Assembly: GCA_044892525.1 (NCBI GenBank)
Contig: CM097885.1
Coordinates: 496,001 to 560,000, forward strand
DNA length: 64,000 bases
Reading direction: 5' to 3'
Source of the DNA: Schmidtea polychroa
Lineage: Eukaryota
Under the pieces are notes generated by a model that saw nothing but the letters and a program-made list of their open reading frames with translations, did no database searches and had not been told where the DNA came from. Position 1 is the first letter of the stretch. Each line of letters starts with the position of its first letter. A program made the position numbers and the translations under genes. Positions 9,347 through 64,000 of this stretch are shown here, piece by piece.

Positions 9347-9770
9347 TCAACAGTTACCAACAATCGGTTACTGATTATTTTTTAACTAGGTGCTAACAAA
9401 TACTTACAACATGATACCACGTACTAACTAACTCTCAAACAACCAGATACTTACAACTAGCTACTAAATATTCTTCACTGTATTTTATGAAATGTATTTT
9501 TTTAAATTAATTTTTTATACATCTACAAAAATATATATTTAATTACAATCATTAGAAAAACCTTTTCAAATTTAACAAAATTGTTGATTTTCATCAAAAA
9601 ACCACAACTCATCACCACGTGAAATTCAAAATAATTTAAATTACAATGAAAGACTAATGAATTCTAATTTACAAAACATTCTTCTTTTAAATGATAACTA
9701 CTGACTTATTATTGCAATGTAAAAATTGCATTCAATAAATACTTATTGTTGATCAGTTTTATTATATATA

Positions 9771-14723: not shown

Positions 14724-14754
<31 letters not shown>

Positions 14755-15059
14755 CATTTAAATTTCCATTTAAATTTACATTATAAATTACATTTCTCAA
14801 AAATGTTGGTGGTTATTCAATCTTTTGATAATAAATTTAAAAATCTTAGTTTAATTTACTTAGTACATTAATTATTTAAAAATTATTACTTTAATTTACT
14901 TATTTAATTTAAAATTTGAACCTTAATTTACTTTTTTAAAAATTATTACTTTAATTTACCTAATTATTCTTTATTTCTTAATTTTACACCATAATTTACT
15001 TAACAACTAATTATAACCCTTATTTTCATATTTAACCAATAATTTCATGTGGTCATCTG

Positions 15060-43599: not shown

Positions 43600-43965
43600 T
43601 TATCCAGTGACTGATTCATTTTTCTCAGATAAAATTTGTTCTGTAATCGGGAAATTCAAGGATGAGAATAAAGGAAATCAATATAAAGAATGGGTGTTTC
43701 TTCGACCCAAGTGCTACTCACTCCAAGGCGATAAAACACTCTAAAAGCCAAAGGAATAAGACTTACAAATTCTAATATCACCCATGAAGCTTATAAAAAA
43801 AGTGTATACTGATGGTGGAACAGTGAGCATCCCAAAAAAAAATAGGAAGTGTCAATCATCAGTTGTATACTTTCATGACAGAAAAATGAGCTCTCCAATG
43901 TTTGGACGATAAAAGGTATTGGTACAATTGTAATGAAAGCTATGCCTACGGTCACTATAAGATTC
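43600..43965 (+). pseudogene. C-terminal pPolB fragment with frameshifts
   Basis: Manual translation: VIGKFKDENKGNQYKEWVFLRPKCYS / LKAKGI / CLDDKRYWYNCNESYAYGHYKI. Confidence 0.85.
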
Positions 43966-45076
43966 GTCACATGCATATTGCAACTTCTATGTCTAGAAAT
44001 GAATGCAAATCGAAACAAGGACTTTAACAATTAAATTTATGTGAATAATAAAATATATATTGTGAATTATTTGACTTCGTTAATTAAAATATGTTTTATC
44101 ATTTAATAATTCATTTGTCCAATTAATTTAGATAATTAGTTTTAAGTAAGAATTATTATTTATCATGAAAAACTTTGCTTTGTTTTGAAAAATTAATGCC
44201 CATTTTATTTTAAATAAACACAGCTTTATTAGTAGTGTGGTTATATACCCAACCAAAACAGCCCTCCCAACAAAACATGCCTCCAAATCACTTAAGCTAT
44301 TAGAAAAACAACCTAAAACTTTTACTTTTATAGTATTTTAACCCTATATTTTGAAAACAACCACCCTTAATGACTCTAACTGTTTTAATCTTTAAAGCCT
44401 CAAACTCAAAAGCATCAAACTAAAAAGAGAATAGAAAAGAAAATGGCATTATGAAAAAGTTAGAGGGCTATTTGATCTTTATCAGATTATTGATTTTAAA
44501 TTATATAAATTAAAAAATAAATGAAAAATAGTAAAACTGCTCTGAGGGGACAGTGGTATTTTTTTTTTTTTTCACTGTCCCCTCAACAGTTTTTTTTGAT
44601 CCGGTTCATTTTTTTTATTTATCAACCTCTTTCGTTTATCGAATCTCTTCCAATATACAAGCTGGCCAGACTCATACATCAGAATCAATCCGATAATAGC
44701 AGCACACCTTATTATTCGCTTCTCGCTCGAATACGATTTCATCGGCGTTTTAAGTGTGCTGCTCGAAAGTACAAATGAATTCGAAAGCGAATTCGAAAGA
44801 GGTCCGAAAACAACTGAGAAATAAATGTGCACATTAAAGAATCGATCCGGGGGTGTTCGAAAGACAGGTGGCGATAATTACCGGTTCGCCACCATCACCC
44901 GTTTCAATATTTTTTTTTTCATATTTATGTTTAAAAAATAATTAATTAATAAAAAAATAAAATAAAATAAAATAAATAAAATAAAATATACAAGTACTTT
45001 ATAAATATAAGATACCCACACTATTTTCAATATTATTTTCAAATTTTTAATATTATTTTATGTTGAAAAAAAAACT

Positions 45077-45149
45077 AACCTCAGATGTGATTTGAACCGC
45101 TAGCATTTTGAACCACTGTGTCAGTCTAGCCCACTGCGCCATCAAGGTT
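45077..45149 (-). ncRNA. tRNA-like RNA polymerase III unit (73 nt)
   Basis: Minus strand: AACCTTGA-TGGCGCAGTGG (A box)...GGTTCAAATC (B box)...TGAGGTT-AG-T9. The ends pair, but the D and T stems are imperfect. Confidence 0.6.
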
Positions 45150-45253
45150 TGGATTTTTTGTCATTTTTTAAATTTTTATTATAAAAAATGAATAATATAA
45201 ATCTTAAAAAATAAAATGAAAACAGGGTATCCAATAAAAATTTTTTTCTAAAA

Positions 45254-45886
45254 ATGAATTGTAATATTTGCAATAAAGTTTTTAAAAATAAAACTGGATT
45301 AATTTCTCACTTAAAATCGAAAGCTCATTTATTAAAAGAAAATAATTTTAATGATACAAATTCAAAACTTTGTCTTAAATGTAAAGGAAGATTTCTACAT
45401 TCTGGATATAATAAACATTTTGAAAATTGTATCGGGAAAAATAGAGAAATATTTACATGTCCTCATTGTAACTTTTCAACAAAACTAAATTTCTATTATT
45501 TAGAACATATAAAAGAATGTAAAAATAAAAAACAAAATTCTGACGATGAGGAATGTCATTCAGAAGGAGAGCCTGATCATGTTGAAAGAGAAAAATATAA
45601 CTGGGATAATTTTAATCATATAGATGAATTTCAATTAAAAATTAATGGGCCTGCAACTCCTGGAGAATATATAAATAAAAATAAAAAAAATATTAAAAAT
45701 TCTTTCACTGATTCTTTAAAAAATTATAAGCCGACAAGGTATAATGTTATAAAATATAAAATTATAATCAAAGCAAAATACTGGCGAGGAGCAGAAGAAA
45801 AGACAACACCCTTAGATGTTGAAATGGAATACCTTTTAAATATTTATTTTCAATTAAAGGATTTGATAAAACCATCAAAGAAATAA
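45254..45886 (+). CDS. Zinc-finger protein; probable N-terminal part of pPolB
   Basis: CNICNKVF...HLKSKAH, CLKC...HFENC, CPHC...HIKEC. Overlaps the open pPolB frame from 45823. Confidence 0.8.
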   Translation: MNCNICNKVFKNKTGLISHLKSKAHLLKENNFNDTNSKLCLKCKGRFLHSGYNKHFENCIGKNREIFTCPHCNFSTKLNFYYLEHIKECKNKKQNSDDEECHSEGEPDHVEREKYNWDNFNHIDEFQLKINGPATPGEYINKNKKNIKNSFTDSLKNYKPTRYNVIKYKIIIKAKYWRGAEEKTTPLDVEMEYLLNIYFQLKDLIKPSKK

Positions 45887-48800
45887 TTAAAGCAGCAGAA
45901 GCAAAACAAGAGGAAGTAGAAAATGAATTAGGAGATTCAAACTTAGTATTCAACTCTTTCCAAACTTTAGTGATTGATTATTGGAGAGGATTACCACCCA
46001 ATCCTAAATCTTATATTTCTACACCCTTTAAATCTAAAAATGTTATAAATGTACAGAATAATGATAACAAATGTTTCATCTGGTCAATACTTGCACATTT
46101 ACATCCTCAAGCAACAAATCCCCAAAGAGTTTCAAAATACAAACAATATGAAAATGAATTAATATTTCCCAAAGGATTCAAACACCCAATGAAACTAGAA
46201 GACATTCCAGAATTTGAAAAATTAAATAATCTTAAACTTAATATTTATGAACATGTTATAGGGAAAGAAATTATTCCAATTTATATTTCAGATAGTGGAA
46301 CCAAGGATAACGGAGCACAGGACAATGAGATATATCTTTTAATCTTGGAACAAGAAAATAATCAACATTATGTTTTAATAAAAAACTTTCAAGCTTTTAG
46401 ATCTCCAGAGAATCCAACTAGTGGAGGAGGAACATGTAAAAGATGTCTTCATTATTCAACAACTAAAAACTCTATGATTAAACATACAAGATTTTGTGAA
46501 AAAGATGATCCAGCTTTAATTAAAATGCCTAATAATCCCAAGATGTATTTTAAAAACTTTTCAAATTTACTACAAACAGTTGGAGTTCTTTATGGTGACT
46601 TTGAATCTATAAACCATAAACAAGATTTGGTTTATCAATATTTAAAAATAATAGAAAAAAATAAACTCATGGATTTATGGAACTCCTCAGGAGAGAAGAT
46701 GAAACCAGAGAGGATGAAAGCCTTTCTAAGAAAAAGAAATAAACCTAATAGTGTTAAAAAAACTAAACAATTATCATCTGCTTATAAATTATTATTTAAA
46801 AGTAATTATCCTGAACTCATAGAATCTAGAGAATATTCAATTCTAGGAGGTACCCCTGAAGAAGTCTTGAATCATTTTACTAAAAATATAAATGATCTAG
46901 AACATGAAATATTTAAAATATTAAAAACAAAGTATCCTCAAAATATTTCTAATCAACAACAACAAGAATATGAAAATACTTCCAACTGTTGGATGTGTAA
47001 ACAGAATATTCTTCCTGATGAAAAAGTTATAGATCATGATCATTTAAAAAAGGAAAATAATTATCGAGGAGCAGCTCATAAAAATTGCAATCTTAATTGC
47101 CATACTCCTAAATTTATACCTGTTATATTTCATAATCTTTTTGGATATGACATACATCTATTTATTAAACACCTCGCAGCAAATGCTAAAAACTCTTTCA
47201 AAGTTATCGGCTTAACAAAGGAAAAATATAAATCAATTGAATATGGAAAATTAAAATTTATAGACTCGTTAAACTTTCTCCAAATGTCTTTAGATGCAGT
47301 AGCAAAAACAATGAAAGCAGAAAATTTTAAAATCACTGGAGAATTCTTGGAAAAAAATAATATTCCTCTAGAAGAATATCCTACATGTTTAGCAAAAGGA
47401 ATATATCCTTATGACTATGTTGACTCGTTTGAAAGATATAATGAAACAAGTCTTCCTAGCCAAGAAGATTTCTATTCACAACTTCAAAAAAATCATATTA
47501 CAAATCAAGAATATTCTCGAGCAAATAAAATGTGGGAATTATTCAAGTGTAAAACTTTAGGAGAATATACAAGTATGTATTTATCCTTGGATGTTTATAT
47601 TCTAGCAGATTGCTTTGAAGAATTTACAAAATCTTTTGTTCTTAAACCCTATAATTATATAACTGCACCCTCTTTAGCTTGGGATACTATGTTATATACC
47701 ATTTGGACTTCAAATATAGAAGATGCTGATAAAATTATAGATCTTTTAACTAACCTCGATATGTTTAACCAAATTAAAACAAACATTAGAGGAGGAGTCT
47801 CTTCAGTAATGGGGAATAGAGAAATAAAAGCTAGAAATGCAATAACTACTAGCCGAAGACTATCTAAACACCCTGATGATCCATATATGAAAATTAACAA
47901 TGAGGAATTAAAAGAATTATTAGAAACAATGAAAAATCCTATATTTATACTTTATATAGATGCAACAGCTTTATATTCAGGAATTATGACTCAATATTTA
48001 CCAATGAGTGATTTCACTGAAATAGAGAACCCAACAGATGACCTTATGAAAGAAATACTTTCAACATCGAAAGATTCTCCAATAGGTTACTTTATAGAAT
48101 GTGACCTCGACTATCCAGATGATATAAAATCAGGAACAAGATATTTTCCTTTAGTTCCCATAAGAAGAAAGATTGATATCAACGAACTTCCTGAATGGCA
48201 AATCTCACAAGATAAACCTCCAACAATGAAACTTCTTTGTGATCAAACAGATCGAAGGTTTTATCTTTGTCACTATAGACTCCTCCAATTTTATCTCTCA
48301 CGAGGAATGATATTAAAAAAAGTTCATAGTGTCATAAGATTTAAACAAGCTCCATTCATGAAAGCTTTTATCGAGGAGAACATTAGGTGTCGAAACATTG
48401 CAAAAAGAGAAGGTAACCTTTTTAAAGATAATAATTATAAACTTTTAAACAATTCAGTCTTTGGGAAAACAATGGAGAATGTTGATAAATATACTCATAT
48501 TGAACTCCTAACAAATACTACCAAAGATATTAAGCGTTATAATCGCATGCTAGGAAAGCCTACATTTAAAAACGCACAAGTATTTTCTGAAAATCATACT
48601 GCAGTAGAATTAAAAAATTATGAGAAAACATATAACAAACCAATATTTATAGGGTTTACAATTTTAGAACTTTCAAAATTACAAATGTATGAAACATATT
48701 ATAACATCTTACAACCTATATACGGAGCAAATATATCAATGCATGCAATGGATACAGATTCAATGTTTTTAACAATAAGAACTCATGATTTACAAAAAGA

Positions 48801-49563
48801 TATGAAAGAAAATCCTATACTTTCAAATTTAATAAATTCATCTGGAGAACTATTTTCGTTTAAAGATGAAAAACCTTTTACTCCTATAGAAAATGGAATA
48901 TTTATTCGTGCTAAACAATATTCATACGAAACATTTAGAAACCCTGAATTTATAACTAGATCATTTATATTTAAAACTCCAGAAACAGAAGAAACCATTA
49001 CACATAGATATCCTATATTTCCTAAAGGACCAGAGGGACAAGAAGAAAAACCTGTAAAGGATAACAGATGTAAAGGAATACAGAGAGTGGTGGCAAAGAA
49101 TCTTTCTCATCAAGATTATATAGATACATTGAATCCAAATCATAAAGATAAAATTGATGAAATACATCAACTTAAAAGTGAAAACCATGATATTCACTTG
49201 ATAGAATCTCAAAAAGTATCATTATCAAATTATGATGATAAGAGATTCATACTAAGTGATTTAAAGACAACTCTACCTATTGGAAATAATTTAATTCCTA
49301 TAATAAAAAATCTAGAAAAGTTGAATAAGTTATATGATACAAAGATTACTGATCTTGATATTTATAATGTTGAAATTATTTATCCCGAGAGAGAAATCGA
49401 GAAACCTTTATATTCTCAAGTTTTTAATCCTATATGTTTAGAACTTAAATATTTTAATACTGATCCTGAATATATAAAAGGTCTAAGTGATAAAGAATTT
49501 AAAGATCATAAATTAATGATTCATAGGTTGGCTTTAACCATAACTGAAACCAACGATATTTAA
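45823..49563 (+). CDS. polB: Protein-primed family B DNA polymerase (pPolB) with endonuclease VII-like insert
   Basis: DNKCFIWSILA; ExoI YGDFES; CWMC...DHDH...RGAAH..CN; ExoII FHNLFGYD; KGIYPYDY; ExoIII YLSLDV; YIDATALY; KLLNNSVFGKT; MDTDS; YDDKR. The frame is open from 45823 and the track start at 45970 is GTG. Confidence 0.97.
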   Translation, partial: NGIPFKYLFSIKGFDKTIKEIIKAAEAKQEEVENELGDSNLVFNSFQTLVIDYWRGLPPNPKSYISTPFKSKNVINVQNNDNKCFIWSILAHLHPQATNPQRVSKYKQYENELIFPKGFKHPMKLEDIPEFEKLNNLKLNIYEHVIGKEIIPIYISDSGTKDNGAQDNEIYLLILEQENNQHYVLIKNFQAFRSPENPTSGGGTCKRCLHYSTTKNSMIKHTRFCEKDDPALIKMPNNPKMYFKNFSNLLQTVGVLYGDFESINHKQDLVYQYLKIIEKNKLMDLWNSSGEKMKPERMKAFLRKRNKPNSVKKTKQLSSAYKLLFKSNYPELIESREYSILGGTPEEVLNHFTKNINDLEHEIFKILKTKYPQNISNQQQQEYENTSNCWMCKQNILPDEKVIDHDHLKKENNYRGAAHKNCNLNCHTPKFIPVIFHNLFGYDIHLFIKHLAANAKNSFKVIGLTKEKYKSIEYGKLKFIDSLNFLQMSLDAVAKTMKAENFKITGEFLEKNNIPLEEYPTCLAKGIYPYDYVDSFERYNETSLPSQEDFYSQLQKNHITNQEYSRANKMWELFKCKTLGEYTSMYLSLDVYILADCFEEFTKSFVLKPYNYITAPSLAWDTMLYTIWTSNIEDADKIIDLLTNLDMFNQIKTNIRGGVSSVMGNREIKARNAITTSRRLSKHPDDPYMKINNEELKELLETMKNPIFILYIDATALYSGIMTQYLPMSDFTEIENPTDDLMKEILSTSKDSPIGYFIECDLDYPDDIKSGTRYFPLVPIRRKIDINELPEWQISQDKPPTMKLLCDQTDRRFYLCHYRLLQFYLSRGMILKKVHSVIRFKQAPFMKAFIEENIRCRNIAKREGNLFKDNNYKLLNNSVFGKTMENVDKYTHIELLTNTTKDIKRYNRMLGKPTFKNAQVFSENHTAVELKNYEKTYNKPIFIGFTILELSKLQMYETYYNILQPIYGANISMHAMDTDSMFLTIRTHDLQKDMKENPILSNLINSSGELFSFKDEKPFTPIENGIFIRAKQYSYETFRNPEFITRSFIFKTPETEETITHRYPIFPKGPEGQEEKPVKDNRCKGIQRVVAKNLSHQDYIDTLNPNHKDKIDEIHQLKSENHDIHLIESQKVSLSNYDDKRFILSDLKTTLPIGNNLIPIIKNLEKLNKLYDTKITDLDIYNVEIIYPEREIEKPLYSQVFNPICLELKYFNTDPEYIKGLSDKEFKDHKLMIHRLALTITETNDI

Positions 49564-49641
49564 TTTTTTAATAATAAAATGTCGACAATTAATTTAAGCA
49601 ACTATAGCAACCTGATCTACTTTTTTAAAAATACACCCATT

Positions 49642-50202
49642 TTATAAGTAAGAATTCTTTAACCATTTTTCTCGAGATGTTTTTTTATTACTTATAACAT
49701 TAGCCACCATGCCCTCCCTTTTTAATCTTATAACCTCATTCTTTATATCTTGTATTATTTGATTTGATTTCATTATTTCTTCGTCTGTCAGGATTCCATC
49801 TTCCAAAGCTTTTAATTGAAATAAAAATAATTTAGAGATTCCTAATTCTATTGATAAACAAACTTCTCTATATAAACTTTTCTTTTTAGAAGTATAAGAT
49901 AATGAAACTATTTCAGTTAAGAAACCATCAGCCACAGAAATACTTCCAAGTATTACAGGTGCAAGAGTAACAACTGGTAAAGTTATGGGTAAAATAACTG
50001 TTAATATTGCAGATGCAAATCCTAAAGAATAACCTATAACTTTTAAAACTGTATTCCCTTTATTCCATCTATTTTTAATTTTTTTATAATGCTTTAATAA
50101 ATCTTGTAAATGTAAGGTTTCTGATTTAAATTCTTTTACTCTCATAATTTCAAGTTCTGTGGGAGCCGAGGCCTTGGAAGAATAATATCCTGATGATCTC
50201 AA
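49642..50202 (-). CDS. Polinton/adintovirus conserved membrane-associated protein (GasderminX-like)
   Basis: Hydrophobic hairpin VIGYSLGFASAILTVILPITLPVVTLAPVILG and C-terminal ALEDGILTDEE. Track start is TTG; the frame extends upstream without an ATG. Confidence 0.65.
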   Translation of the reverse strand: MRSSGYYSSKASAPTELEIMRVKEFKSETLHLQDLLKHYKKIKNRWNKGNTVLKVIGYSLGFASAILTVILPITLPVVTLAPVILGSISVADGFLTEIVSLSYTSKKKSLYREVCLSIELGISKLFLFQLKALEDGILTDEEIMKSNQIIQDIKNEVIRLKREGMVANVISNKKTSREKWLKNSYL

Positions 50203-50246
50203 TTCTGGGTAAATTTTTTCTTCTCTTACTTCTTCCTTTTTAATAT

Positions 50247-51257
50247 TTAAAAAAATAAGACTTTATTCTTCTGAGCACCATCTGGCACCAATACTCGGAT
50301 ATCAAAAGAAACTCTTGTTGAGAGGATATCTTTATACAATTCTCTCAATGCTTTACGAACTTCATCAACATCAACCTTTTTTTCATAAAATATTAAATCT
50401 ATATATTGTACAAGTGAACTAGAAAAATGAATATTCTTACTTTTAACTTTATGTAGTCCATGTGAATGAGTATTAACATACCAATCTCCGTGTGGTAAAT
50501 CATAACTAGTCATTATAACATCACCCTTTTCAAGCTTACTATTATAATCACATTTCACAAACCATTTCATTCTTTCATTATCATCATCAAACAAAAAGAA
50601 ATAAGGATCAATAATTTTTACAACCATAAAAACACCCCATTCTTTACTGTTTGTTGTTATTAAACTTGGTTCTATAAAATGTTTATATGTATGGGGTAAT
50701 AATGTTTTATTCTGTTCTAATTCAGCAGCTCTTTTTCTAATACTATGTGTGGTGTTAATGTGTGTTCCATGAGACTCTAAATTTGAAATTCTTTTATTAA
50801 ATGATGTAATCATCTCATTTATTATTTTATATATTGTATTAAATTTAGTATTCATAATTTGTTTATCTTTAGAATTTAATATAGCAGTATTTAATTTTAC
50901 AACTTGTTCAGTTAACAGACTTTGTAACTTGTCAAATTTATCATTAAATCGTTGTTCGATATTATTAAGCTTTGATTCCATTGAATCAATGTTTGTTGTT
51001 AATGAACTTTCAATTCTTGTTGTTGTTAAATCAGTAAAATTTTTAACACCATCAACATATTTTTTATTAACTGCATCAGCTTCATCAGTTGGTAAAGATA
51101 AATCTTTTATCTTGTGTCCATTTAAATTTAAATCTCCTTTCATTGAATCACCTCTTTCATTAATATATTTATTTTCTGTTAAAGTTAATATTTCTTCTGT
51201 ATTAAACCCTGTTTTTATTGTTCTACCACCTCTATTACATGGAATATAAGAACTCAT
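50247..51257 (-). CDS. Putative virion fibre-like protein
   Basis: GDSMKGDLNLNGHKIKDL..PTDEADAVNKKYVD fibre-type repeat, coiled coil, unique C-terminal head; adjacent to penton. Confidence 0.65.
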   Translation of the reverse strand: MSSYIPCNRGGRTIKTGFNTEEILTLTENKYINERGDSMKGDLNLNGHKIKDLSLPTDEADAVNKKYVDGVKNFTDLTTTRIESSLTTNIDSMESKLNNIEQRFNDKFDKLQSLLTEQVVKLNTAILNSKDKQIMNTKFNTIYKIINEMITSFNKRISNLESHGTHINTTHSIRKRAAELEQNKTLLPHTYKHFIEPSLITTNSKEWGVFMVVKIIDPYFFLFDDDNERMKWFVKCDYNSKLEKGDVIMTSYDLPHGDWYVNTHSHGLHKVKSKNIHFSSSLVQYIDLIFYEKKVDVDEVRKALRELYKDILSTRVSFDIRVLVPDGAQKNKVLFF

Positions 51258-51281
51258 TTATTAATAATTTAAAATGAATCT

Positions 51282-52046
51282 TCAAACCTGTTTCAAATGT
51301 AAATACATTGAAATCTCTTCTCCATTAAAATCAATCAATTCTCCTTCTTGATTAAGAATTTTAAAATTAATATCCATTATATATTTTCTACATAAAGGTA
51401 AATAATTTGGAGGATTCATTCTTTCAACTATTTTATATCCCATAGGAACTGTGTTTGAGGGAAAGGAATATAAAACATTTGTTTGTTTACCATTATTATA
51501 AAAACCTGTTATACAATCGCAATGAATATTTATTGTGTTTGTATTTATTATTTTTATAATATTTTCTGATGTTATTATTTTATCTTCTTTTATTGTTATA
51601 TCCATAGGTTTAAATCCTAAAACTGTGTGAAAGAAACAATTATCTAAAAAACTAATTTTTAAATTCTTCAAAGTCATTACACATTTTGAAGTTGGTATAT
51701 CCATTTTAATTTTAATACCTTCATTTGTTTTTTTAGAAAGTATATCATTTAAATCTTTTATCTCATATGCCCCAGGTTCTATTGTTATAATTTCTGGTTT
51801 ATGCCCATCACGAGTTTGAATAGTAAATTTATTATTATCTTTAGTTATATTAAAAATAGTATTATAAGCACAAAACCATAATAGCCCCAATTCATAATTT
51901 AAATTTTGATCTAATTTAATTGAATCTTGAAAGTTTATAGTAAAGTCTGATTCTTTTGAATTTATAGATAAAGTTCTTGAATATTTATCTGACATTATGT
52001 TTACCATTTTTTTTAAATTATCTTCCGGAGGCTTGTGAAGCTCCAT
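51282..52046 (-). CDS. Minor capsid protein (penton, single jelly roll)
   Basis: DFTINF...YELGL...YNTIFNI...NNKF...PGAYEI.DLN...INIHCD.I.G.Y.NG...IDFNGE pattern typical of Polinton pentons. Confidence 0.85.
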   Translation of the reverse strand: MELHKPPEDNLKKMVNIMSDKYSRTLSINSKESDFTINFQDSIKLDQNLNYELGLLWFCAYNTIFNITKDNNKFTIQTRDGHKPEIITIEPGAYEIKDLNDILSKKTNEGIKIKMDIPTSKCVMTLKNLKISFLDNCFFHTVLGFKPMDITIKEDKIITSENIIKIINTNTINIHCDCITGFYNNGKQTNVLYSFPSNTVPMGYKIVERMNPPNYLPLCRKYIMDINFKILNQEGELIDFNGEEISMYLHLKQV

Positions 52047-52094
52047 TTCTTTAGTAGTAAATTCATATAGTAAAAATCCTTATAGTAAAAATCC

Positions 52095-52559
52095 TTATAG
52101 TAGAGATTCTAGATCATTATAAATTTCTTGAATTATAGATTCAAAATCCTGCGTATGCCCCTTTCCCTCTTCCTTATTCAATCTATACAAAACATATAAA
52201 CTTAAAATACCACATATTTTAGTATTCAAAGGTTGAACTTGTAAAGAGTTAAAAGTATAACCATTTGGGGAATCAATCGGAGAACCCCTCAAGAGATAAT
52301 CTTCAACTTCTTTAGTAGGTTTAATCCCAAAAGAATCAAAGTAGATAGATTTCTTATATATACAAACCCAATGAGATCCTTTTTCATTTGAATTTTGATA
52401 ATTGATTATTATATTCAGGGGACTCTCCAGACTTGATAATTCATCATTCATTAATATTTTAATTTTTAAATTTAAATAATTTGCATAATCTTTTAAATCA
52501 AAATTTGTTTTTGCATTTATTCCAAATGTTTTTAAAAAATCTAATATTGAAGGAGTCAT
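52095..52559 (-). CDS. Adenain-like cysteine protease (capsid maturation)
   Basis: GSHWVC, YFDSFG, Q...ICG: His/Asp/Gln/Cys all intact. Confidence 0.92.
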   Translation of the reverse strand: MTPSILDFLKTFGINAKTNFDLKDYANYLNLKIKILMNDELSSLESPLNIIINYQNSNEKGSHWVCIYKKSIYFDSFGIKPTKEVEDYLLRGSPIDSPNGYTFNSLQVQPLNTKICGILSLYVLYRLNKEEGKGHTQDFESIIQEIYNDLESLL

Positions 52560-52581
52560 TTTGTATTTTAAAACTTCGTAT

Positions 52582-53320
52582 TTATAACTTCGTATACTTA
52601 TTAAATTTATCTTTTGAAATTATTCCTTGTTTTAACAAATCTTTAGAAATCTTTAAAATATCAGAATCTAAATTATTATGTCCTGCTTTCCTTGCAGCTA
52701 ATAGTTTTCTTAATTCAATAAAAAGATTGATGGGATTTGGTTTACCACCTTCACTAATTAATCCCTCTCCCTCTGTAACAACATAACCCTTTTCATTTTT
52801 ATTTAAATAATTCTTTAAATCTTGAATATATTTTGCTTTAGAACTAGCTCTTATTAATCTTATTAAATTTAAATATTTTTTAATTTCTTCAACATCATCT
52901 GAAGAATATCCACAAAGTAATCTATAAAAATCATCTGTAAATTCAAAGTCTAAATATTCATTATTATAAACATTTTGTGAATGAATACGTGATTTATTTT
53001 CTGAATTTGAATATAAAGTAAAGTTTTGTTTATTAATTGTTATTATTTGATATCCTTCAGTATTAGTATTAAATGTGGGTCTAATTGAAGGAGGTAAATC
53101 ATCTCTAATTTTAGGATCAACTTTAAGAGGTTTTGTTTTTAAAAACATTTCTTCTTCTTCCACATTAGAAATTCTTCTGCGTTTTCTTTGATTTCTTTCA
53201 GGATGGTTTTCACTGGATTCTTTTTCTTTATCCTGCCACTCTAGTTCTTTTATTTTTTGTTTTTTATCTTCTAACTCTTTAAATTTTGCTTGCTCATTGA
53301 AATCTTCCAAATCTTCCAAA
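52582..53320 (-). CDS. Conserved Polinton hypothetical protein, 5'-truncated
   Basis: C-terminal GEGL...NPINLFIELRKLLAARKAGHNN...LLKQGII pattern. The track start (TTG at 53328) lies in the duplication junction. Confidence 0.7.
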
Positions 53321-56300
53321 TTTTTCAATTCTTAATTACTGACTATTATTCCAACTTTTTGTTAATAAATTTAAAAATCTTACTTTAATTTTCTTATTAC
53401 TTTAATTAAAAAATTTGAAACTTAATTTACTTATTTCAGCCCATTGATTACCAAATATATCTATTAATTTACTTTAATTCAAAAATCTTAGCCCATAATT
53501 TACTATATTTCAATTTTTAGACCCTTAATTTACTGTAATTCAATTTTTGAACCATCATTTACTTTAATTTTAAATTTAAGAACCATAATTTACTTTAGTT
53601 TAAAAATTTGAACCTTTATTAACTAATAAAAGTTAAATTATCATTTTCAATTAATATTTTACAAACATAAAATTACAATATTTGAAATTCTAAATATCTC
53701 TATTAACATGTTTGCAATTAATTTTAAAAATACAAAAATTTTACAAAATTTTCAAATTGAATATTATATATTTTTTTAATTTGCATTTGATAATGTTTAT
53801 TCTTAATAAGATTTTCCCATGAGAAAATTCATATTTGTTTAAATGCAAAACTTTAAATTTAATTCTATAAAAAAAAATTATTTTTCAAGACGTCTAAAAG
53901 CTCTAGGACAAGAAGAAAATACAGTTTAGAAAGGTAGTGAATGAATTTCCTAATGAATTACAGAAGGGTATAGGACAAAGTTCCAGTTCTCTATTCTCAA
54001 TTTATCATCAATCAGCAGCAACATTGACAAAGTTTATCTTAAACAAGCTGCAAATTTATATATAAAATTACATAAAAATTGTTGATAAATTGTTAAAGTT
54101 TTAATAATATATTTCGAATAATAAAAATTTCCCTTGATAAAATTCTGAATATGAAATAAATATTAAAAATTATATTAAAATTTAAAACTGTAAAAATTTT
54201 AAATTTTATTTATAAATTTCATTTTTAAATTGTTTTATTAATCAATTTATTAGAAAATAATCTTAATGAAGCATTTTAAGTATTATTTTAGTTTTAACTA
54301 ATTTTTCTAAATTTTATTTAAATTTATTTTTGTAGTCGTTTATGATATGGAGGCCTTTAAGCAGTTAGTCTTAGTTAACGTAGCTCTCTTTGCTGGAAAT
54401 AATACAAATTACCTTTTACCTTGACTGCATTGATGGAGGTGCTACTCGTCATGAACCTACCTCATGCAGTTATCCATTTGTATGCCGAATGTCCTTTACC
54501 GTCAAACTTCCTGTGGCTTCGTCATAATCGTTCTTATTGGTCTAACAATGTACCGCACTACGTCGATCCCTCTTATAAGGTTTCTGAATTTCAACATTTT
54601 GCTCTTATCATAGCCCATTTTTGACTGCTTTGGTGACAACATTAGAGTGCCTTCTTTTATTTTTTACCTTTTTAGGATCTGACCTTCACAGTGGATACAT
54701 AAAGATTTTCAGCAAAAGCCTCAGCGATATGTCCTTGTAATTTCATTTATTTCCATTTTCAGCGTAGATTAGACTAGTAATGTCGTGTAATTCTGAACAC
54801 TTCTCATGCTTTCTTTCTTTATTTTCAATTTCTAGTTTATTATTTACATCCATCATTTTTATTTTTATTCAGATATTGCATTTATTATTTCTATGTAGAT
54901 AGTTTAATACCTAAATCGGTATTCCTTACTAAATCGAAAGGTTTAAGCGGTCCTTACACATGCATCATACTGATCCCAGTTGGTGTATAAAATAAACTGC
55001 ATTGATGAAGGTTCGAACCTTCATCGTTTTCTCTCTTGCAGTCAGTCATTTGTGTGGACCTTGTATTTCTTTGTCTTTTTTGCCAGATCCTCTATCTCAG
55101 TGGTAGATAATCCTTAGTATTGTGTATATTTACTTTACCAATTTACTTTTACCAACTGTGCTTTAACAGCTTCGTACTCGGCCAGTGAGCTTATCCTTTC
55201 ATCCCTGCACTCTTCAATTCGCCTATCACGCTTCGCAAATAGAACCTCTGCTACTTGTTTGAATTCTTTCTGTGCATTCGAACCCCAACGGCAACTACTT
55301 ACTCTTGCCGCTAGTATCTTTTTAAGTGTCCTAGTTAAAACTGAGCACGCTCTTCCTCTATTTTTGAAGGCTTTCTTAAATCGGCATCCAAGCTAGTTCG
55401 CTGGTCATGTTTTCGGTTATTGGGAGTCATTTCCCAATATTTTTGATTTCAAGCTTTGGCTGGGTGCTTTGTTTTGCCTGTGTTTTAATAGAATGGGAAT
55501 AGGTACCTTTTCTCGGAGAGATGCTTTTTCAGGAATGGTGATGTTGAAGTGATGGACTCCTTCTCCTGGTAGTATTCCTCACTATATCTGCTTATGTTTT
55601 TGATGTAGCTTCTTTTGCATTCATTCTGTTTTCGTCTAAGTACCTAATGATATAGATAAATATTGGAACTGGGGCATAATTTATTCATAATCCGAAGGCT
55701 TCAATGGTTATACGTCAGCTGCCTCCTGGCTTCTCTGATAAAGTTCTCTTTTTCTCCTTGGAATTGCCGCCTATTTCTGCGCAGTGCTAGGAATCTTATA
55801 TTGGAGTGATTCTCCGAAGCACTGGTAAACGGCGGGAGTTATATTGTAACGATTGTTTTTGGAATATTGCATGTAATATTTTTACGGAAAAGAGGTGCTA
55901 GGAAGTGATTCTCCTAAGCGCTGGGAAACGGCGGGAGTAATCTGGTAATAATTTGAGTTTCTGAATAACATTAAAGAAATATTTTCACGGTAAAAAAGGG
56001 GACCTCCATCCGGCATTGGATCATCCTCCTGCAGCAGAATTATCTTTTTCATTTTCCTTAACTTTTAATTTTTCTATTTCTTTAAGCTTTTTATAGAAAA
56101 CTTTATTATCCTTTTCTATATTTGAAAATTTTACATTATTAAAAGCGAAAATATCATTAATACCGCAATTTTGATTATTAATTACCGTTATTTTAGCTTT
56201 CGGATAATTTTGAAATAATAAATATGGCATTTTCATGCTTTTCCTTGTCATCGGGCGAGATTTTTTTCCAATCGGCCAGTGTGATTCCATCAAGTCCTGG

Positions 56301-59300
56301 AGCAGTGTTTTGGAGTACTGAGAAGATTTATTATTTAGGATCTTCGTTATCTCCCTTACTACAAGGGACTTGGGATGTAGACCAGTCGTCCACCGTAAAC
56401 ACTACTTTAACCACTGGAACAATCATGTGAGTCATATCAAATGTCTTAAGTGAATAAGGAAGTTTGGAATTAGAGTCGAACGAACGAACTATATAGTCGC
56501 GAAGTCCAGCTAAGTGCTCATTTATTTTTAATCCATTGGCGTCTCTTGTAGGAACAACGGTTTATTCCATTTTGCCAATTGTGACCTGACCGCTTCGTTC
56601 TCGGCCAATAAGCTTATCCTCTCATCCCTGCACTCATCAATACGTCTAAGCCTATCACGCTTCGCAAATAGTACCTCTGCCAACAGGGCTGGCACACCCA
56701 GCCCCCCATTTTTAATTTTACTATTTATAAATGATGAACAAGTATCGGTTGGCAGGTGTAACCATTTGCGAACCGCGCCTCTAGTCATTTTATCCAATAC
56801 CCCTAGTTCGGTGGTATCGGTTTCCCCCAGCATAGCCTCATGTAAGATACCTGGTATCAAAAAGTCACTAAGCACCTCTAACTTTTGTTGCGGCTTAATA
56901 GGTGCCCTCGTAATATACTCAAGACGTTTAGTATAAAGATTGGATAGCTTTTTAGTAGTGCGACCAAAGGCTCCAAATTGGATCCCCAAATACTTATAGT
57001 AGTAGTCAGCTGACAAGGCATGGAACTCTTCCCCATCAGCACTTACCTTTTCGTTAGTAACCATCCATTTTTTCTGCTTGCCGTCCCATCGCGCTATAAT
57101 GGAGGCACTCTTACTTGGATTAACACTAAGGCCATTAGAAGCCAATTCATTTAAAACCGTTGTTAACAGGTGTTCTAACCCCGCTTTGGTTTCACTAACT
57201 ATTACTAAGTCGTCGGCATACGCCAAAATGGGATAGGTTATTCCCCCCAACTTATAGCCAATACCAGTTTCAAATGCTTTCTGGATGGCGAGATCGATTA
57301 CATTGTTGAACAGCGTGGGTGAAAGCGGGTCGCCCTGTTTCACCCCCCTGTTAAACTTTGCCCCAATGCCATCGACCGTAGTTGTAGCATTGTTATAGCT
57401 CTCTTTAACCAACCTTAAAAGCAATTCGGGATAACCCGCTAGTTTCGCCGCTCTCATGATACTATCATGATTCACAGAATCGAAGGCCTTTTTCATATCG
57501 ACAAAGGCAATTGCTACATTCCTAAATTTAGTTCGCGCATCAGAAAGGATGCAATCCAGCAAAGTGGTGTTTTCAAGGCACCCATCCACTGGCTTAAACC
57601 CCTTCTGTGCATTCGAACCCCAGCGACAACTACTTACTCTTGCCTCCAAGATCTTATTAAGTGTCCTAGTTAACACTGAGTTAACGGAAATAGGCCTATA
57701 GTCCCCTGGACTTTTGGGGTTTTCAACTTTTGGGATTAATGAGGTTCGTGCTGTCTTTAATACTGGGGGTAAATGTCCTAGAGCTAATATAAGATTAAAC
57801 AACTTGAAGAGCGCAGCATGCGGTATAGTTATCAAGGCCTTCGCGCTAATGCCTTCAGGACCACTAGCCGTTTTCAATTTCATCTTTTGCACAGCAGCTG
57901 CGATCTCCTCTAATGAGATATGTGCAGCTACTGTGTGCAGCTCCATGCCCATCCCCTTCCTCTTGTCTTCTAACTCTTTAAACACTGCTTTATATTAAAA
58001 AAAAAAAAAAAAAAAAAAAATCAAATTTTATTTTAATCAATTGACGGCACTTGGCCAAGAAGGGGAGAACTTCTCACCCTTAGAGTTCTGTAGCTTTTAA
58101 TTCAATGACCGATGGATACCAGAGTTATAAACTCAGGTATCAGAACGTGGGTTTCCAAATGGGTTGGAGTAATTGGAGTATTTGGAGTAATAGGAGCAGT
58201 TGGAGTAATTGGAGCAGTTGGAGTAATTGTAGCAATTGGAGTAATTGTAGCAGTTGGAGCAATTGTAGCAGTTGGAGTAATTGGAGCAGTTGGAGTTGGA
58301 AATCGTCATTTATTTGGGAGAAAGATGGTGTCAGATTTATGGATTCTGCAATATTGGTAACATTATCGTGGTAGAGTTTTGGGAAGTCATCATCGTAGGA
58401 GTTTTCAGTAGTTTAAAGATTTGGTGCAAGTGTTCAGAATTTAGAGGTTTGGATTGGTCTTGATAGGTGGAGGTGATCGATATTGCAAGATTATTGATGT
58501 TGGTGTATATTTCACTGTTTGGATTGATTGTAGTAGTTGGCGTGAATGGAGCAGTTGGAGCAAATAGAGCGGTTGTAGTAAATGGAGCAGTTGGAGCAGT
58601 TGGAGTAAATGGAGCAGTTGGGGAGTTGGTTGAATTAGAGAGTTTAGATATTTATATAGTTGATTAATAATAGTTAATAATATAGATAATAACCATAAAA
58701 CACAAATAGAATAGGATAATGCTCTGAGTACATATTATATACGAAATATCTGGAATTCAAGATTGGTTTAATAAGAGACAAAGAAAATTGTAAAAGGGTG
58801 ATATATAATAACCATAGAATACAAATAAATAAAAGATGCTTTGGCTACAAAAAGATAGATATATAAGTATAATTAATTTTTATATATATGTTGACGATAT
58901 ATTTGGTAGCTGCTATTGATTGCAGCTACACATGCTATTTTGGCTAGCTCCTTTATTTCATTATTGGATAGGCCAATAATTTTAAGTATCGAGTCATTAT
59001 TTTTGTCCCATGAGCCAAGGGTGCCAACTACGAGGGCATGTAGAGTGTATGGGCATTTATGGAGTCTACCAATTTCCTCTCCTAGTTCCTTATATTTATT
59101 ATAGTTTTTTCTCCTAGAGTTGTCGTAGTTTTCTCTGTTACGCTTAGACTTTAGAAGAAGATCGGGCTTAAGGGTGGAGTTGGTACCTTCAGGTATTTTC
59201 TCTATGTCTACTTCATAGTTAACAGATATAAGGAAGTTTGCCACAGTTTCTAGGACATTATCATGCTTATTTCGTCTTGCATTAATACGTGCTTGGCAAT

Positions 59301-60120
59301 GATTGAAGATGTGTGCAGGTGTTTCCGGGTGGGCATGGCAGTGCCGGCAGAGTATAGATTTATTAGTCTTTAGGCGGTGTGGTGAGTAGTTCAGTTTTAG
59401 AAGGTTGTTGCGTGCGCGAATAAGAAAAAGGAATTGGGCATCAGGAAGGATGTCACTTTTAAAGAAATAGTCGGCAATGTTGCTTTCGCTAATTGCCTTT
59501 GCCATATAGCCCTGGCATTTCATCGCACACCAACGTTCAGCATGGATAAGGCCAATAATGGAGTGCAGTTCAGCTGACGTTCTATCCACATTACCCAGGG
59601 AGAAGTAATTGATACGACTCTTATATTTTATTTCAAGCTGTAGAAGATCCTCAAGCATTATGATTTTCGTAGATATACCGTATTTAAGAAGCAGACGTCA
59701 GGCCAATTTTTTAAATTTCGAGAAGATGGAGAATGTTGGGTAGGTTTTAGAGAGTTGGCCATTCAGCCAGGACAGTGCAACATTTAAATCTCCTTGTCCT
59801 CTAGCCTCGATAAGTTCGGCAGTAATGAGAGTCTTAAAGTTAAGATCGCTAGAATTTAATGCCCTAATAAGCTGTACAATGCTTTGAATAAGGTATTCTT
59901 CAATGGAAGATACAAGTCCAAGTCCTCCAAGCTTGCAAGCTGCATATAAGAAGTTGTCATTCAGTTGCATTATCTTATCTCCGATGGATCTTTTAATACC
60001 CTGTTTAATTTGCAGGTCAAATCCATATTGTTGTATTTCAGAGTTACGAAGGATGTTGCGGGGAGAGTCTAGAATGTTATGGTTTATAACACAGTTTCTA
60101 AAGGTAAAGTTCAAGCGAGA
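53318..60120. repeat. Partial unit U3 (copy of ~23492-30294)
   Basis: Offset ~29827. Shares the R2 deletion and the end junction with U1. Confidence 0.97.
56528..57992 (-). pseudogene. R2-like RT, U3 copy (485-aa open frame)
   Basis: Same motifs and internal deletion as U1, without the U1 frameshift. Confidence 0.93.
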
Positions 60121-60122
60121 GT
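58873..60122 (-). pseudogene. NeSL/Utopia-like 3' fragment, U3 copy with a premature stop at 59698-59700
   Basis: CGA>TGA relative to U1/U2. Confidence 0.9.
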
Positions 60123-62298
60123 TTACGCAAAAATTTGCAAATTATTATTATTTTACAAATTTTATTTACTAAAAAATAAAAATTTACTAAATTAAAAATA
60201 TTAACATTTACTTATTTAAAATTAAAAAACCAATCAATAAAAATGCATCCAATTATCAAGAAATTAATTAAATTTATCTTAGAACTAACTTAAAATTTTT
60301 AAATATTCATTCTGTCCACATGAAATTCATGAAAATGATAAAAATTCACAAAAACCATCAACTCTAAAAAAAAAATTACTAAGGAATACCTTAAACACAA
60401 ATATTTATCTAAATAATCTTTCAAATTAATTCATTAAAATTGAAGACAACACGCTCTATTTCGTCATTACATTCAATTAAAATTAAATAAATCAAGATAA
60501 GAACTTTGATAAAAAATATTATTCTAAAATGGTAAGAATTAACACTGTAGTGTTAAATGAAAAGGTAATTATTCTTTAAATCTAATTATAATTATAATCA
60601 TAATTTTCTTTAATTTAACCGTTTATTTACTTAATTTAGTCCTTGTTTACCGAATATAGAAGTTTAAAATATAGACCATTGATTACTTTAATTTAAAAAT
60701 GTATCCCTTAATTTAAATAATTTCCATCTAAAATTATTTCAAAAAAATTTTTTTTCTAAAATTGTCATTGAAAAATATTTCATAAAAATTTTCATTAAAA
60801 ATTATCTTAAAAATTATTCCATAAAAATTTCCATCTAAAATTACTTAAAAAATTATTTCATAAAAATTTTCATTAAAAAATTTCAATTCTCAAACACCTT
60901 CTATTATTTTGTTAATAAATTTAAAATCTTACTTTAATTTGCTTATTACATTACTTATTTAAAAATTATTACTTTAATTTACTTATTTAAAATATTTGAC
61001 CATTGATTACTTAATTTAAAAATTAGGACCTTTATTAACTTTAATTTAATTTTTTAGAACCTTAATTTACTTTAATTTTAAATTTTGACCTTTAATTAAC
61101 TTTAATTCAAAATTTGGACCTTAATTTACTTTAATTGAAAATTTTAGACCTTAATTTACTTAATTGAAATTTTAGACCTTAATTTACTTAAGTTTAAAAA
61201 TATATACCATAATTTACTTTACTTTTAAATTTTAGACCATAATTTACTTAATTGAAAATTTTAGACCTAATTTAATTTAAATGAAAATTTTAGACCTTAA
61301 TTTACTTAATTGAAATTTTAGACCTTAATTTACTTAAGTTTAAAAATATATACCATAATTTACTGTAATTGAAAAATTCGAGCGACTAATTTATTGGTTA
61401 ACTTTGCAGTCATTTAAAGCAAAAATTAATTTATTCATCTAATGTTCGTTACAATAGTTAATAATATGAGAAAAATATGGTCATTATTCATTGATAATTT
61501 TAAATTCTTTATCATTTGGAGTAAATTTGTTTGAGGCAAAAATAATTAAAAGAGTCATAATAGAAATATGGTTATCATTTAACCAATTAATGGGCTTATT
61601 AGTTAGAAATATATATATTATAAAGTAACAATTATTTTCTAATTTAATTAGTAGATCATTAGACGTAATATATCTTTGCGAGAAATTTAAAATGTTTGAG
61701 TAACCAAAACATGGATATTTTGTGCGATAAATTTATGAATATTGGTTGATTTTGTTATTTTTAGTCATTTAAAATAATATTTAGCAAAGGTAATTTAGCA
61801 AAATATCCACCCGATAACAATATTCCTTCAATAGATTAACTGATATTCAACCTATTTAATTTCTGGAAATATAATTAAAATCATAAATTTCCTTCAATAA
61901 AGTTAAATCAAAAACGCAAGAGACGATCAAGCAAATCAAGAATTAAAAAATAAACACATTGCAGAAACAGAATTTATATAAAGTCAAACCCTGACTCCTC
62001 CAACAGATTCAAGTCTAAATAAAATTCAATCAAAAGCAATAACACTGGTAAGTAGGACTCCAACCCACTTTCAAGGTCATGAAATATGTCCAGATCAAAT
62101 ATAGGTCAATTGAATCATTTATTTTTAAATTAACATTTTCTTTATTTACTTCTTTTTAATTTTTTCTTTTTAATTATATTAATTAATTATTTTATTTTGT
62201 TTTATTTTAATTACTTACTTTAGTTAATTTTTAATTTATTACATTAATTAATTTCTTAGTTTATTAATATTTTATTTTAATTACTTACGCTATTTAAA

Positions 62299-62362
<64 letters not shown>

Positions 62363-64000
62363 TATTTTATTTATTTCTTTATTTTTTCTTAAATTTTACA
62401 TTCATTATATTCTAACAAGAGAGTTAATTATAACAATAATATTTCAATTTGTATAAAATTTTAATTAGTAATTATTCAATTTGAATAAAATATTTATTAG
62501 AAATTATTTAATTTATTATAAAATAAAACGCTGTGTTAATTTTAAATAAACTGGATATTAATTTTTTGGAAAAAATAAATAAATAAAATAGTCTAAAAGG
62601 TTAAATTATGGTCTAAAATTTAAAATTTAAAAATTGAAAATTGAAAATTAATATCTAAACTAATCAAACTAAATCAAACGCTATAACCTTAATTCAAGAA
62701 TTCACTAAAGTAGATCAGAAGATATTAATTATCAAAATGTAACAAAGACTCTGAAATTCATCAAATTTATCTAATGACCTGGTGATATTCAATACCATTC
62801 TCAAGAATGCTAAAGTCGGGAATTCTTTGAATTTAACAAATAAATAAAAAATTAAATAAAAAATTATTGTTGATTATAGTTTATCATTAATTATTTTTTT
62901 GTTAGGGGTTGTAAAGAAAATACTTTGTCAACACAAGATTTTTAAACTTATTAACAAAAAGTTGGAATAATAGTCAGTAATTGAGAATTGAAATTTTTTA
63001 ATGAAAATCTTTAATAGAAATGTTTTAAGATAATTTTTAATGATAATAAAAAGAAAGAACCTTATTTAATGCTATATCCTCTATAGCACTTAAAAAACTC
63101 TCGACGCAATCTAAACCTATGAACTGTTGATAAGATTTAGATCCATCAAAGTTATTTACAAGTAAAAGACCAGAAGATATTGGCATGTGTCGTTTGAAAT
63201 GAACATTATCAGAAGGTAAAATAGCCTCAAAATCGGCATCAACTACAAAAGGAGGAGTTACTGTTTTCGACCAGTCAGTAAACTGTAATAATTTATTTTG
63301 AGGGAAGGTGTAAATAGTTGTTCCTAACTGATTTTTTATGTGTTTAGTTAATGTTTATATGTTTTGTTATGTGTCTAGTTATTTTTATGTGTTTAGTTAA
63401 TTTTTATGTGTTGTATAGTATTTGGTTGAAATAATAATATTATTATTAATCTATAAAAAAAAATTTCATTAAAAAAATTTACTTAAAAAATTAATCCACT
63501 AAAATTTTCGTTGAAAATTATCTTAAAAAATTTTTATTAAAGATTTTCATTAAAAAATTTTTCAATTCTTAATTACTGACTATTATTCCAACTTTTTGTT
63601 AATAAATTTAAAAATCTTACTTTAATTTTCTTATTACTTTAATTAAAAAATTTGAAACTTAATTTACTTATTTCAGCCCATTGATTACCAAATATATCTA
63701 TTAATTTACTTTAATTCAAAAATCTTAGCCCATAATTTACTATATTTCAATTTTTAGACCCTTAATTTACTGTAATTCAATTTTTGAACCATCATTTACT
63801 TTAATTTTAAATTTAAGAACCATAATTTACTTTAGTTTAAAAATTTGAACCTTTATTAACTAATAAAAGTTAAATTATCATTTTCAATTAATATTTTACA
63901 AACATAAAATTACAATATTTGAAATTCTAAATATCTCTATTAACATGTTTGCAATTAATTTTAAAAATACAAAAATTTTACAAAATTTTCAAATTGAATA
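60121..64000. repeat. Unit U4 (start), runs off the window; includes a pPolB ExoI fragment at ~63060-63335
   Basis: Offset ~29826 to U2. Shares with U2 the short deletion at AAAATAT^CCACCCG. Confidence 0.97.

What the first reader, a model, noticed from the sequence alone, without database searches (positions are those of the whole stretch)
45066..45149. tRNA-sized Pol III transcription unit inside the Polinton, divergent from pPolB
Seen (minus strand): A box TGGCGCAGTGG at tRNA-like spacing, B box GGTTCAAATC (plus a second GGTTCAAAAT), complementary ends AACCTTG/TGAGGTT, a small ACTG-ACA-CAGT hairpin and an immediate T9 terminator, ~100 bp from the Zn-finger ATG. It is not a canonical cloverleaf. 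Known: adenoviruses, relatives of Polintons, encode Pol III VA RNAs. Inference: a virus-encoded small RNA or a TFIIIC-bound insulator that keeps the element open in heterochromatin.
Basis: partly seen in the sequence, partly recalled or inferred. Interest (0 to 1): 0.75.

Follow-up and report, generated by a model that had tools for sequence, protein, structure and literature searches.

The report
Broken tRNA genes capping Polinton ends
A virus-like jumping element carries, at both ends, decayed tRNA genes that keep the signals for RNA polymerase III but not the tRNA fold, related to repeats in the host's ribosomal-DNA spacer, probably as chromatin boundaries beside its own promoters.

Summary
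The motifs are real and not chance (5 of 2,000 shuffles). The unit is not a SINE. It is the innermost part of the Polinton terminal inverted repeat, present at both ends, facing outward, in 1–3 tandem copies (20 of 20 sampled sites; 1,578 unit matches against 1,531 termini). Diverged subfamilies keep the A box, the B box, exact tRNA spacing and the T run, while interiors and most stems decay (0.83–0.85 against 0.35–0.39 identity). Many elements add two more pseudo-tRNAs beside the capsid gene; one passes Rfam's tRNA threshold. These two recur almost unchanged in the host rDNA spacer. An earlier scan note on this genome gave that spacer lead. Best reading (0.5): a captured TFIIIC/Pol III landing pad acting in cis as a boundary next to the terminal promoters. 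A VA-like RNA gets 0.2 and neutral hitch-hiking 0.2. Transcription and binding are untested. None of my ten paper searches returned such a unit in a Polinton repeat; analogues are Cassandra/Ajax, Pokey and foamy-virus LTRs.

The parts
44231..53331 (+). Left 9.1 kb of a ~15-kb Polinton/Maverick, cut off on the right by a 10.2-kb tandem array of an RT-bearing retrotransposon
   Evidence: Left boundary at 44230/44231 in nearly all loci that reach it; array junction near 53318; integrase, PLA2-like domain and double-jelly-roll capsid on the right half of another copy
44231..45172 (.). Left terminal inverted repeat (942 bp with one unit here; about 1,170 bp in two-unit copies)
   Evidence: Right ends match the window only over 44231-45172/45221; 6-bp target duplication in 5 of 5 end pairs where both termini were found, of 7 tried
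44534..44895 (.). GC-richer conserved core of the terminal repeat with two strong hairpins, downstream of the unit
   Evidence: 22-mer has 3,140 matches genome-wide and marks the repeats of the subfamilies checked; function not studied
44942..45172 (-). About 230-bp tandem module holding the unit; one copy here, 1/2/3 copies in 7/11/2 of 20 sampled ends
45066..45074 (-). T9 Pol III terminator
   Evidence: T7-T9 in types A, D and F, only T4 runs in the one type-E copy held
45077..45083 (-). 3' arm of the acceptor-like stem
   Evidence: 6 of 7 pairs incl. G-U here; 1 of 7 and 4 of 7 in type D
45089..45098 (-). B box at exact tRNA spacing
   Evidence: unchanged in types A-D and F
45105..45114 (-). 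Proximal B-like duplicate; misses the last consensus C; variable copy number
   Evidence: absent in D, E, F
45115..45125 (-). 4-bp hairpin, not conserved
   Evidence: broken without compensation in several variants
45131..45141 (-). A box
   Evidence: one R-position change between A and D
45143..45149 (-). 5' arm of the acceptor-like stem
45150..45172 (-). Leader shared by types A-D; the inner boundary of the terminal repeat lies about 31 bp upstream of the A box
45254..45886 (+). Zn-finger N-terminal part of pPolB, divergent from the unit
   Evidence: Pfam zf-met; aligns to the N-terminus of a single-ORF pPolB relative, E 3e-16
45823..49563 (+). pPolB polymerase frame
   Evidence: PF03175

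Best explanation
The unit is a tRNA-derived type-2 Pol III promoter module that this Polinton lineage took, most likely from the pseudo-tRNA subrepeats of the host rDNA spacer, and fixed at the inner edge of both terminal repeats. TFIIIC binds the A and B boxes and loads TFIIIB just upstream, back-to-back with the promoter of the first interior gene (pPolB on the left; a small ORF and the capsid gene on the right). The complex works in cis as a boundary: it keeps the terminal promoters nucleosome-poor, hinders heterochromatin spreading in from the host flank, and blocks Pol II from running across the inverted repeats. A ~90-nt transcript ending at the T run is probably made, but its fold matters little. 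Shown: position, orientation, copy number, box/spacing/terminator conservation, near-identity of E and F with the spacer. Inferred: direction of capture, factor binding, transcription, boundary action.
For: Both ends, outward: 20 of 20 sampled sites in repeat context; 9 of 27 clusters form outward pairs 12.4-17 kb apart against 0 of 22 inward (first 100 rows minus 15 satellite rows). Conserved in a diverged subfamily: type D lies divergent from a capsid start that is 18 of 24 aa identical and shares leader and homology outside the boxes with the window unit (z 5.3). Four types: A box 0.83, B box 0.85, interior 0.35-0.36, tail 0.39; T8-T54 45-46 nt in all 7 units, anticodon stem 2 of 5 pairs in all 7 against 5 of 5 in 3 host tRNAs. 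A second acquisition (E, F) sits directly upstream of and divergent from the capsid gene; 33 of 55 F sites have the repeat core outward, 1 the other way. The host uses the same geometry: 35 of 40 listed 5.8S genes have unit G 5.2-5.5 kb upstream, antisense, with F repeats behind it. tDNAs and TFIIIC sites act as barriers, insulators and blocks to divergent Pol II transcription (PMC4228148, passages). Polintons are piRNA and H3K9me3 targets in a planarian (PMC8532177, passages; relevant only if the host is similar, not tested).
Against: No binding or expression data. The acceptor-like stem partly persists (5-6 of 7 pairs in 5 of 7 units; chance of >=6 about 1.5%), and terminators are kept, which a pure TFIIIC site would not need. 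The window type is not itself significantly similar to E or F outside the boxes (z 1.5 and 1.1); the link runs through the outer and D types (z 3.0-3.6), and host tRNA-Lys scores as high against D, E and F, so kinship of type A with the spacer is probable, not shown. E/F are missing in 12 of 13 fetched right ends, and the E copy held has a damaged B box. No unit was listed within 10 kb of 3 (canonical B box) or 2 (CAA form) listed copies of the second large Polinton family, so the module looks dispensable for Polintons in this genome. Only 2 of 4 testable type-D sites have an exact repeat core beside them, and only 1 outward pair appears among 35 D sites.
Confidence: 0.5

Rival explanations
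1. Trans-acting small RNA of the VA/TMER kind: each unit yields a ~75-90-nt Pol III RNA that titrates La, Dicer, Argonaute or PIWI proteins, or is processed through a tRNA-like terminal stem.
For: Terminator kept at a fixed place; about 2,900 A-type units with exact boxes and T run (1,442 forward matches, doubled); several different units in a row resemble the TMER set (PMC8223928, passages); Pol III units in terminal repeats are proven for foamy-virus LTRs (PMC3993851, passages); acceptor-like pairing partly kept.
Against: No shared or above-chance fold in 5 variants; hairpin and tail change without compensation; type D loses the terminal stem; no miRNA-like hairpin inside the predicted transcript.
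Confidence: 0.2
2. Neutral cargo: spacer pieces were captured repeatedly, then spread by terminal-repeat homogenisation and copy-number slippage; the boxes look conserved because they were conserved in the host source.
For: E is identical over 51 nt and F differs at one position between element and spacer rows, so recent capture happens; E/F are optional; earlier notes report other Pol III-type pieces in Polinton relatives here (not tested); Pokey carries spacer repeats with no shown use (PMC10946416 section 11).
Against: Types A-D share a leader and a position that E and F lack, which points to one capture followed by divergence inside the elements, and there the boxes stayed while interior and tail changed; no A-type row was listed in the rDNA stretch at the start of C1; the orientation is the same in both captures.
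Confidence: 0.2
3. rDNA mimicry or reverse donation: the modules tether the integrated or free genome to nucleolar or tDNA clusters, or disguise the ends as self; alternatively the spacer repeats are old Polinton ends fixed in the rDNA unit.
For: Same repeats and ~240-bp period in spacer and element; a Polinton terminus lies 4.9 kb from a 5.8S gene at the start of C1.
Against: Elements are dispersed over the chromosomes, not confined to rDNA; the spacer holds a further type (G) that I did not find at element ends, which fits the spacer as the source.
Confidence: 0.1

Closest known systems
Cassandra (plants) and Ajax (ribbon worms) LTR/TRIM retrotransposons
   Same: A host Pol III internal promoter fixed inside the terminal repeats of a mobile element (PMC10946416 section 11)
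   Different: Those carry the 5S (type 1) promoter in direct repeats of non-autonomous retroelements; here type-2 tRNA promoters, tandem, in inverted repeats of a virus-like DNA element, facing outward
Pokey (piggyBac, Daphnia)
   Same: DNA transposon with ~200-bp repeats derived from the rDNA spacer upstream of its gene (PMC10946416 section 11)
   Different: Pokey inserts in 28S rDNA and its repeats are internal; the passages read do not describe them as Pol III promoters
Foamy-virus LTR Pol III miRNA cassettes; MHV68 TMERs; adenovirus VA RNA
   Same: Virus-borne type-2 Pol III units with A box, B box and T run, several in a row (PMC3993851, PMC8223928, passages; VA biology recalled)
   Different: Those RNAs are shown to be made and have defined folds or miRNA hairpins; here no fold is conserved, no Rfam match was found and transcription is untested
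tDNA / ETC-site chromatin boundaries (yeast, incl. tRNA pseudogene ETC9)
   Same: Decayed tRNA gene retaining TFIIIC signals next to a divergent Pol II promoter (PMC4228148, passages)
   Different: Host loci in single copy; here carried by a mobile element in thousands of copies; binding untested
tRNA genes of Polinton-like and MELD viruses
   Same: tRNA sequence inside a Polinton-class element (PMC12220804, PMC8502044, passages)
   Different: Those are rare ARAGORN-callable or predicted tRNA genes, read as codon helpers in PMC12220804; here cloverleaves are broken and the units are terminal and regular

Membership tests
Polinton/Maverick (host element) | Protein-primed PolB | tested here: met
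   PF03175
Polinton/Maverick (host element) | rve integrase and double-jelly-roll capsid | tested here: met
   PF00665 and PF21738 on the right half of another copy; missing from the truncated window copy
Polinton/Maverick (host element) | Long terminal inverted repeats with 5-6-bp target duplication | tested here: met
   (5 of 5 complete pairs, two being one duplicated locus)
Type-2 Pol III transcription unit | A box, B box GWTCRANNC at tRNA spacing, downstream T run | tested here: met
   B consensus from PMC4228148; A consensus recalled
Type-2 Pol III transcription unit | TFIIIC/Pol III occupancy and a discrete transcript | not testable with these tools
   only contig runs of uncertain kind were offered
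Functional tRNA gene | Cloverleaf with paired D, anticodon and T stems | tested here: not met
   D 1/4, anticodon 2/5, T 2/5 pairs; ARAGORN and Rfam negative. Sister unit F passes RF00005 (32.4 > 29 bits, GCA loop) but has a broken anticodon stem
tRNA-derived SINE | Dispersed copies with unrelated flanks, in excess of the carrier element | tested here: not met
   20 of 20 sampled and 30 of 30 top hits in element context; counts match termini
Adenovirus VA RNA / TMER | Conserved stable fold or miRNA hairpin; family match | tested here: not met
Adenovirus VA RNA / TMER | Abundant expression and antagonism of host RNA defence | not testable with these tools
   needs RNA and functional data
rDNA-spacer-derived TE module (Pokey type) | Same sequence once per rDNA repeat and inside the element | tested here: met
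   for sister units F and E (one spacer row)
rDNA-spacer-derived TE module (Pokey type) | The window's own type A traces to the spacer | tested here: inconclusive
   indirect via outer and D types; direct z 1.1-1.5; host tRNA-Lys scores similarly
tDNA/TFIIIC chromatin boundary | Barrier or enhancer-blocking activity that depends on the B box | not testable with these tools
   only geometry and conservation were examined

The most novel reading that the evidence does not exclude
This Polinton lineage has twice pirated the host's rDNA-spacer pseudo-tRNA modules and runs them as an active counter-silencing system: Pol III-loaded caps insulate both ends and draw the element into the nucleolar/tDNA compartment, while thousands of copies pour out VA-like RNAs that blunt PIWI silencing. 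It would be a Pol III system in a Polinton and a living model of how VA/TMER-type genes arise from tRNA relics.
Probability: 0.2. Interest if true: 0.85.

Novelty: new variant of a known kind. Interest (0 to 1): 0.57.

Why it matters
Polintons are relatives of adenoviruses (recalled), but their long terminal repeats are nearly unannotated. A regular, conserved Pol III cassette there gives a concrete, testable way for a very high-copy element (about 3,100 terminal repeats) to stay expressible under heterochromatin silencing, and an intermediate between tRNA relic and viral Pol III RNA. It also shows that this host's rDNA spacer carries antisense pseudo-tRNA subrepeats upstream of the rRNA genes, a layout worth study in itself, and that these thousands of sites will inflate tRNA annotation and compete for TFIIIC.

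Tried and rejected
Functional or suppressor tRNA: rejected; a relaxed ARAGORN call of type E as tRNA-SeC(TCA) has weak stems and internal T4 runs. tRNA-Trp as direct parent: best of 3 host isotypes (score 52 against 25+-4; 6 of 1,000 box-kept shuffles) but z only 1.9 outside the boxes and not seen for other types; dropped. Only 3 isotypes were aligned and a fourth seen in rows. Capture of a host tRNA-array monomer: spacers of the 3 arrays do not match the repeat. SINE: rejected (44 of 58 unit sites have an exact terminus outward, 14 none, 0 the wrong way). Expression: no RNA holder listed; four contig runs of guessed kind were laid and cannot show start, end, strand or level; no conclusion drawn. 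Relatives elsewhere: viral contigs gave nothing; 32 metagenome loci had no A-B-T pattern but almost none includes an element end, so uninformative. A G-like variant outside rDNA has only 2 sites. Type H is confined to 20 sites at the start of C1, 19 in one satellite. The GC-rich repeat core as a spacer piece: no exact match listed in the first 33 kb of C1; inexact matches not seen. Literature: ten searches; Polinton + VA RNA + adenovirus gave 0 papers; no listing showed a Pol III unit in Polinton repeats. I did not search for pseudo-tRNAs in rDNA spacers, and Repbase reports and subscription papers are not covered. No supplements were read; those of PMC12220804 (tables of non-coding RNAs) could bear on novelty.

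Full report
Observation. It is not a tRNA by ARAGORN or Rfam and folds no better than shuffles (z +0.45). The distal B box fits GWTCRANNC (PMC4228148, passage) and lies 45 nt from the A-box T, as in three host tRNAs (45-46). The proximal B-like copy lacks the final C and varies from none to two copies.

Context. A Polinton starts at 44231, carries pPolB and is cut at about 53,320 by a 10.2-kb tandem retrotransposon array. Another copy supplies integrase, a PLA2-like domain and capsid. The 'Zn-finger ORF' is the pPolB N-terminus; the frame continues in 20 of 29 copies and is broken in this one. Right ends match the window over 44231-45172 only, which defines the terminal inverted repeat; 5 of 7 end pairs had both termini and all 5 show a 6-bp target duplication, two being one duplicated locus. 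The unit is therefore the innermost module of the repeat, faces outward at both ends, and its ~230-bp module is present 1, 2 or 3 times in 7, 11 and 2 of 20 ends.

Not a SINE. Every fifth of the first 100 listed sites (of 1,578; control 0) was fetched: 20 of 20 lie in repeat context, as do 30 of 30 top hits. The terminal 22-mer has 1,531 matches. Of 58 unit sites in the shared range, 44 have an exact terminus outward, 14 none, and none the wrong way.

Conservation across subfamilies. Loose ends pointed to variants, and one search listed types B, C and D. All 6 B/C clusters and 2 of 4 D sites in range have the repeat core outward. One D unit lies about 150 bp from, and divergent to, a capsid start 18 of 24 aa identical to that of the window family. 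A generic A box/B box search gave 20,927 matches against 1,963 controls (the total includes host tRNA and rDNA copies). Its first 100 rows held no canonical tRNA but clusters of different units about 240 bp apart; 9 of 27 clusters form outward pairs 12.4-17 kb apart and 0 of 22 inward pairs (15 satellite rows left out). One fetched right end (L038, capsid 98.6% identical) carries types E and F between the capsid start and a small ORF; 12 of 13 fetched right ends do not. F passes Rfam's tRNA threshold with a GCA (Cys) loop, which shows that F, at least, descends from a tRNA gene. Over four types the A box is 0.83 and the B box 0.85 identical, against 0.35-0.36 inside and 0.39 in the tail; the spacing is 45-46 nt in all 7 units; the anticodon stem has 2 of 5 pairs in all 7. 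Five variants share no fold. Against a purely DNA-level reading, the acceptor-like stem keeps 5-6 of 7 pairs in 5 of 7 units (chance of 6 or more about 1.5%), although D loses it.

Link to rDNA. I tested this on the units. Type G has 692 exact matches, and 35 of 40 listed 5.8S genes have it 5.2-5.5 kb upstream, antisense. An F variant one letter from the element's has 1,482 matches, the first 100 lying singly or in 243-bp tandems behind G. E appears in one spacer row identical to the element rows. The element's F variant is dispersed, with the repeat core outward in 33 of 55 sites. So E and F moved recently between spacer and element. The window type is homologous to D outside the boxes (z 5.3), and D and the outer type to E and F (z 3.0-3.6), but the direct score is weak (z 1.1-1.5) and host tRNA-Lys scores as well against D, E and F. 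An older capture from the same source is probable, not shown. Direction is inferred from the extra type G in the spacer.

Mechanism. Shown: terminal position, outward orientation, back-to-back placement with the first interior gene at both ends, retention of boxes, spacing and terminator with loss of fold, and a second acquisition in the same geometry. From established knowledge: tDNAs and TFIIIC sites, including a tRNA pseudogene, act as barriers, insulators and blocks to divergent Pol II transcription (PMC4228148, passages); Polintons are silenced by nuclear PIWI in a planarian (PMC8532177, passages). Inferred: TFIIIC/TFIIIB assemble on the units and protect the terminal promoters in cis (0.5). 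Rivals: a VA/TMER-like RNA (0.2), neutral hitch-hiking (0.2), nucleolar mimicry or reverse donation (0.1). Results against generality: no unit was listed near 2-3 copies of the second large Polinton family. The ends of that family were not read, so this stays open.

Comparison and novelty. It works like a tDNA boundary, and it is a type-2 Pol III unit by sequence; it is not a tRNA, SINE or VA RNA by the features tested. Closest analogues: Cassandra/Ajax and Pokey (PMC10946416, section 11 and passages), foamy-virus LTR units (PMC3993851, passages), TMERs (PMC8223928, passages), and scattered tRNA genes in Polinton-like viruses (PMC12220804 and PMC8502044, passages). Ten searches (listings only, apart from the papers named) showed no Pol III cassette in Polinton repeats; the library lacks most subscription papers and Repbase reports, and I read no supplements. 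Verdict: real, systematic, a new variant of a known kind; function untested; interest 0.57.

Noticed in passing
G000 rDNA repeats, e.g. C1:12251-13268, C115, C202: The host rDNA spacer carries a row of pseudo-tRNA A/B-box subrepeats (G, E, F, F, F; ~240-bp period), antisense and 5.2-6.3 kb upstream of 5.8S, in about 690 repeats.
   Followed up: partly
G000 C4:55.02 Mb, C1:13.54 Mb, C4:76.66 Mb, C140, C333: Host tRNA genes stand in very long tandem arrays (847 Trp matches; periods 268-424 bp); 36,306 generic A/B matches of the canonical type against 1,248 controls.
   Followed up: no
window 44534-44895: GC-richer repeat core with two strong hairpins, shared by the subfamilies checked (3,140 matches); 10-20-fold deeper than its surroundings in laid contig runs of uncertain kind, with many differing letters.
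   Followed up: partly
window ~20000-41000 and 53318-64000: Head-to-tail array (10.24-kb period) of a non-LTR retrotransposon with RT and zinc-binding domain near the contig start; the Polinton fragment sits within it.
   Followed up: no
window 43600-44000: Stop-ridden remnant that looks like the C-terminus of another pPolB (by eye, motifs recalled); flank and element are duplicated 32 kb away (L001).
   Followed up: no
L038:974-1230; L052:4640-4930: Small ORF rich in charged residues between the capsid start and the right terminal repeat, read towards the unit and ending in or near it.
   Followed up: no
G000 C1:145883-168321: 1,245-bp satellite with a Cys-like A/B-box unit (type H) related to F; 19 of its 20 sites are here.
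   Followed up: partly
G000, one search list: A second, very abundant Polinton family with a different pPolB (8,821 first-look candidates); several hits form divergent pairs 7-10 kb apart.
   Followed up: partly
window 1-3753 and 8317-15753: Long near-perfect inverted repeats (1.5 kb; about 2 kb built of short subrepeats).
   Followed up: no
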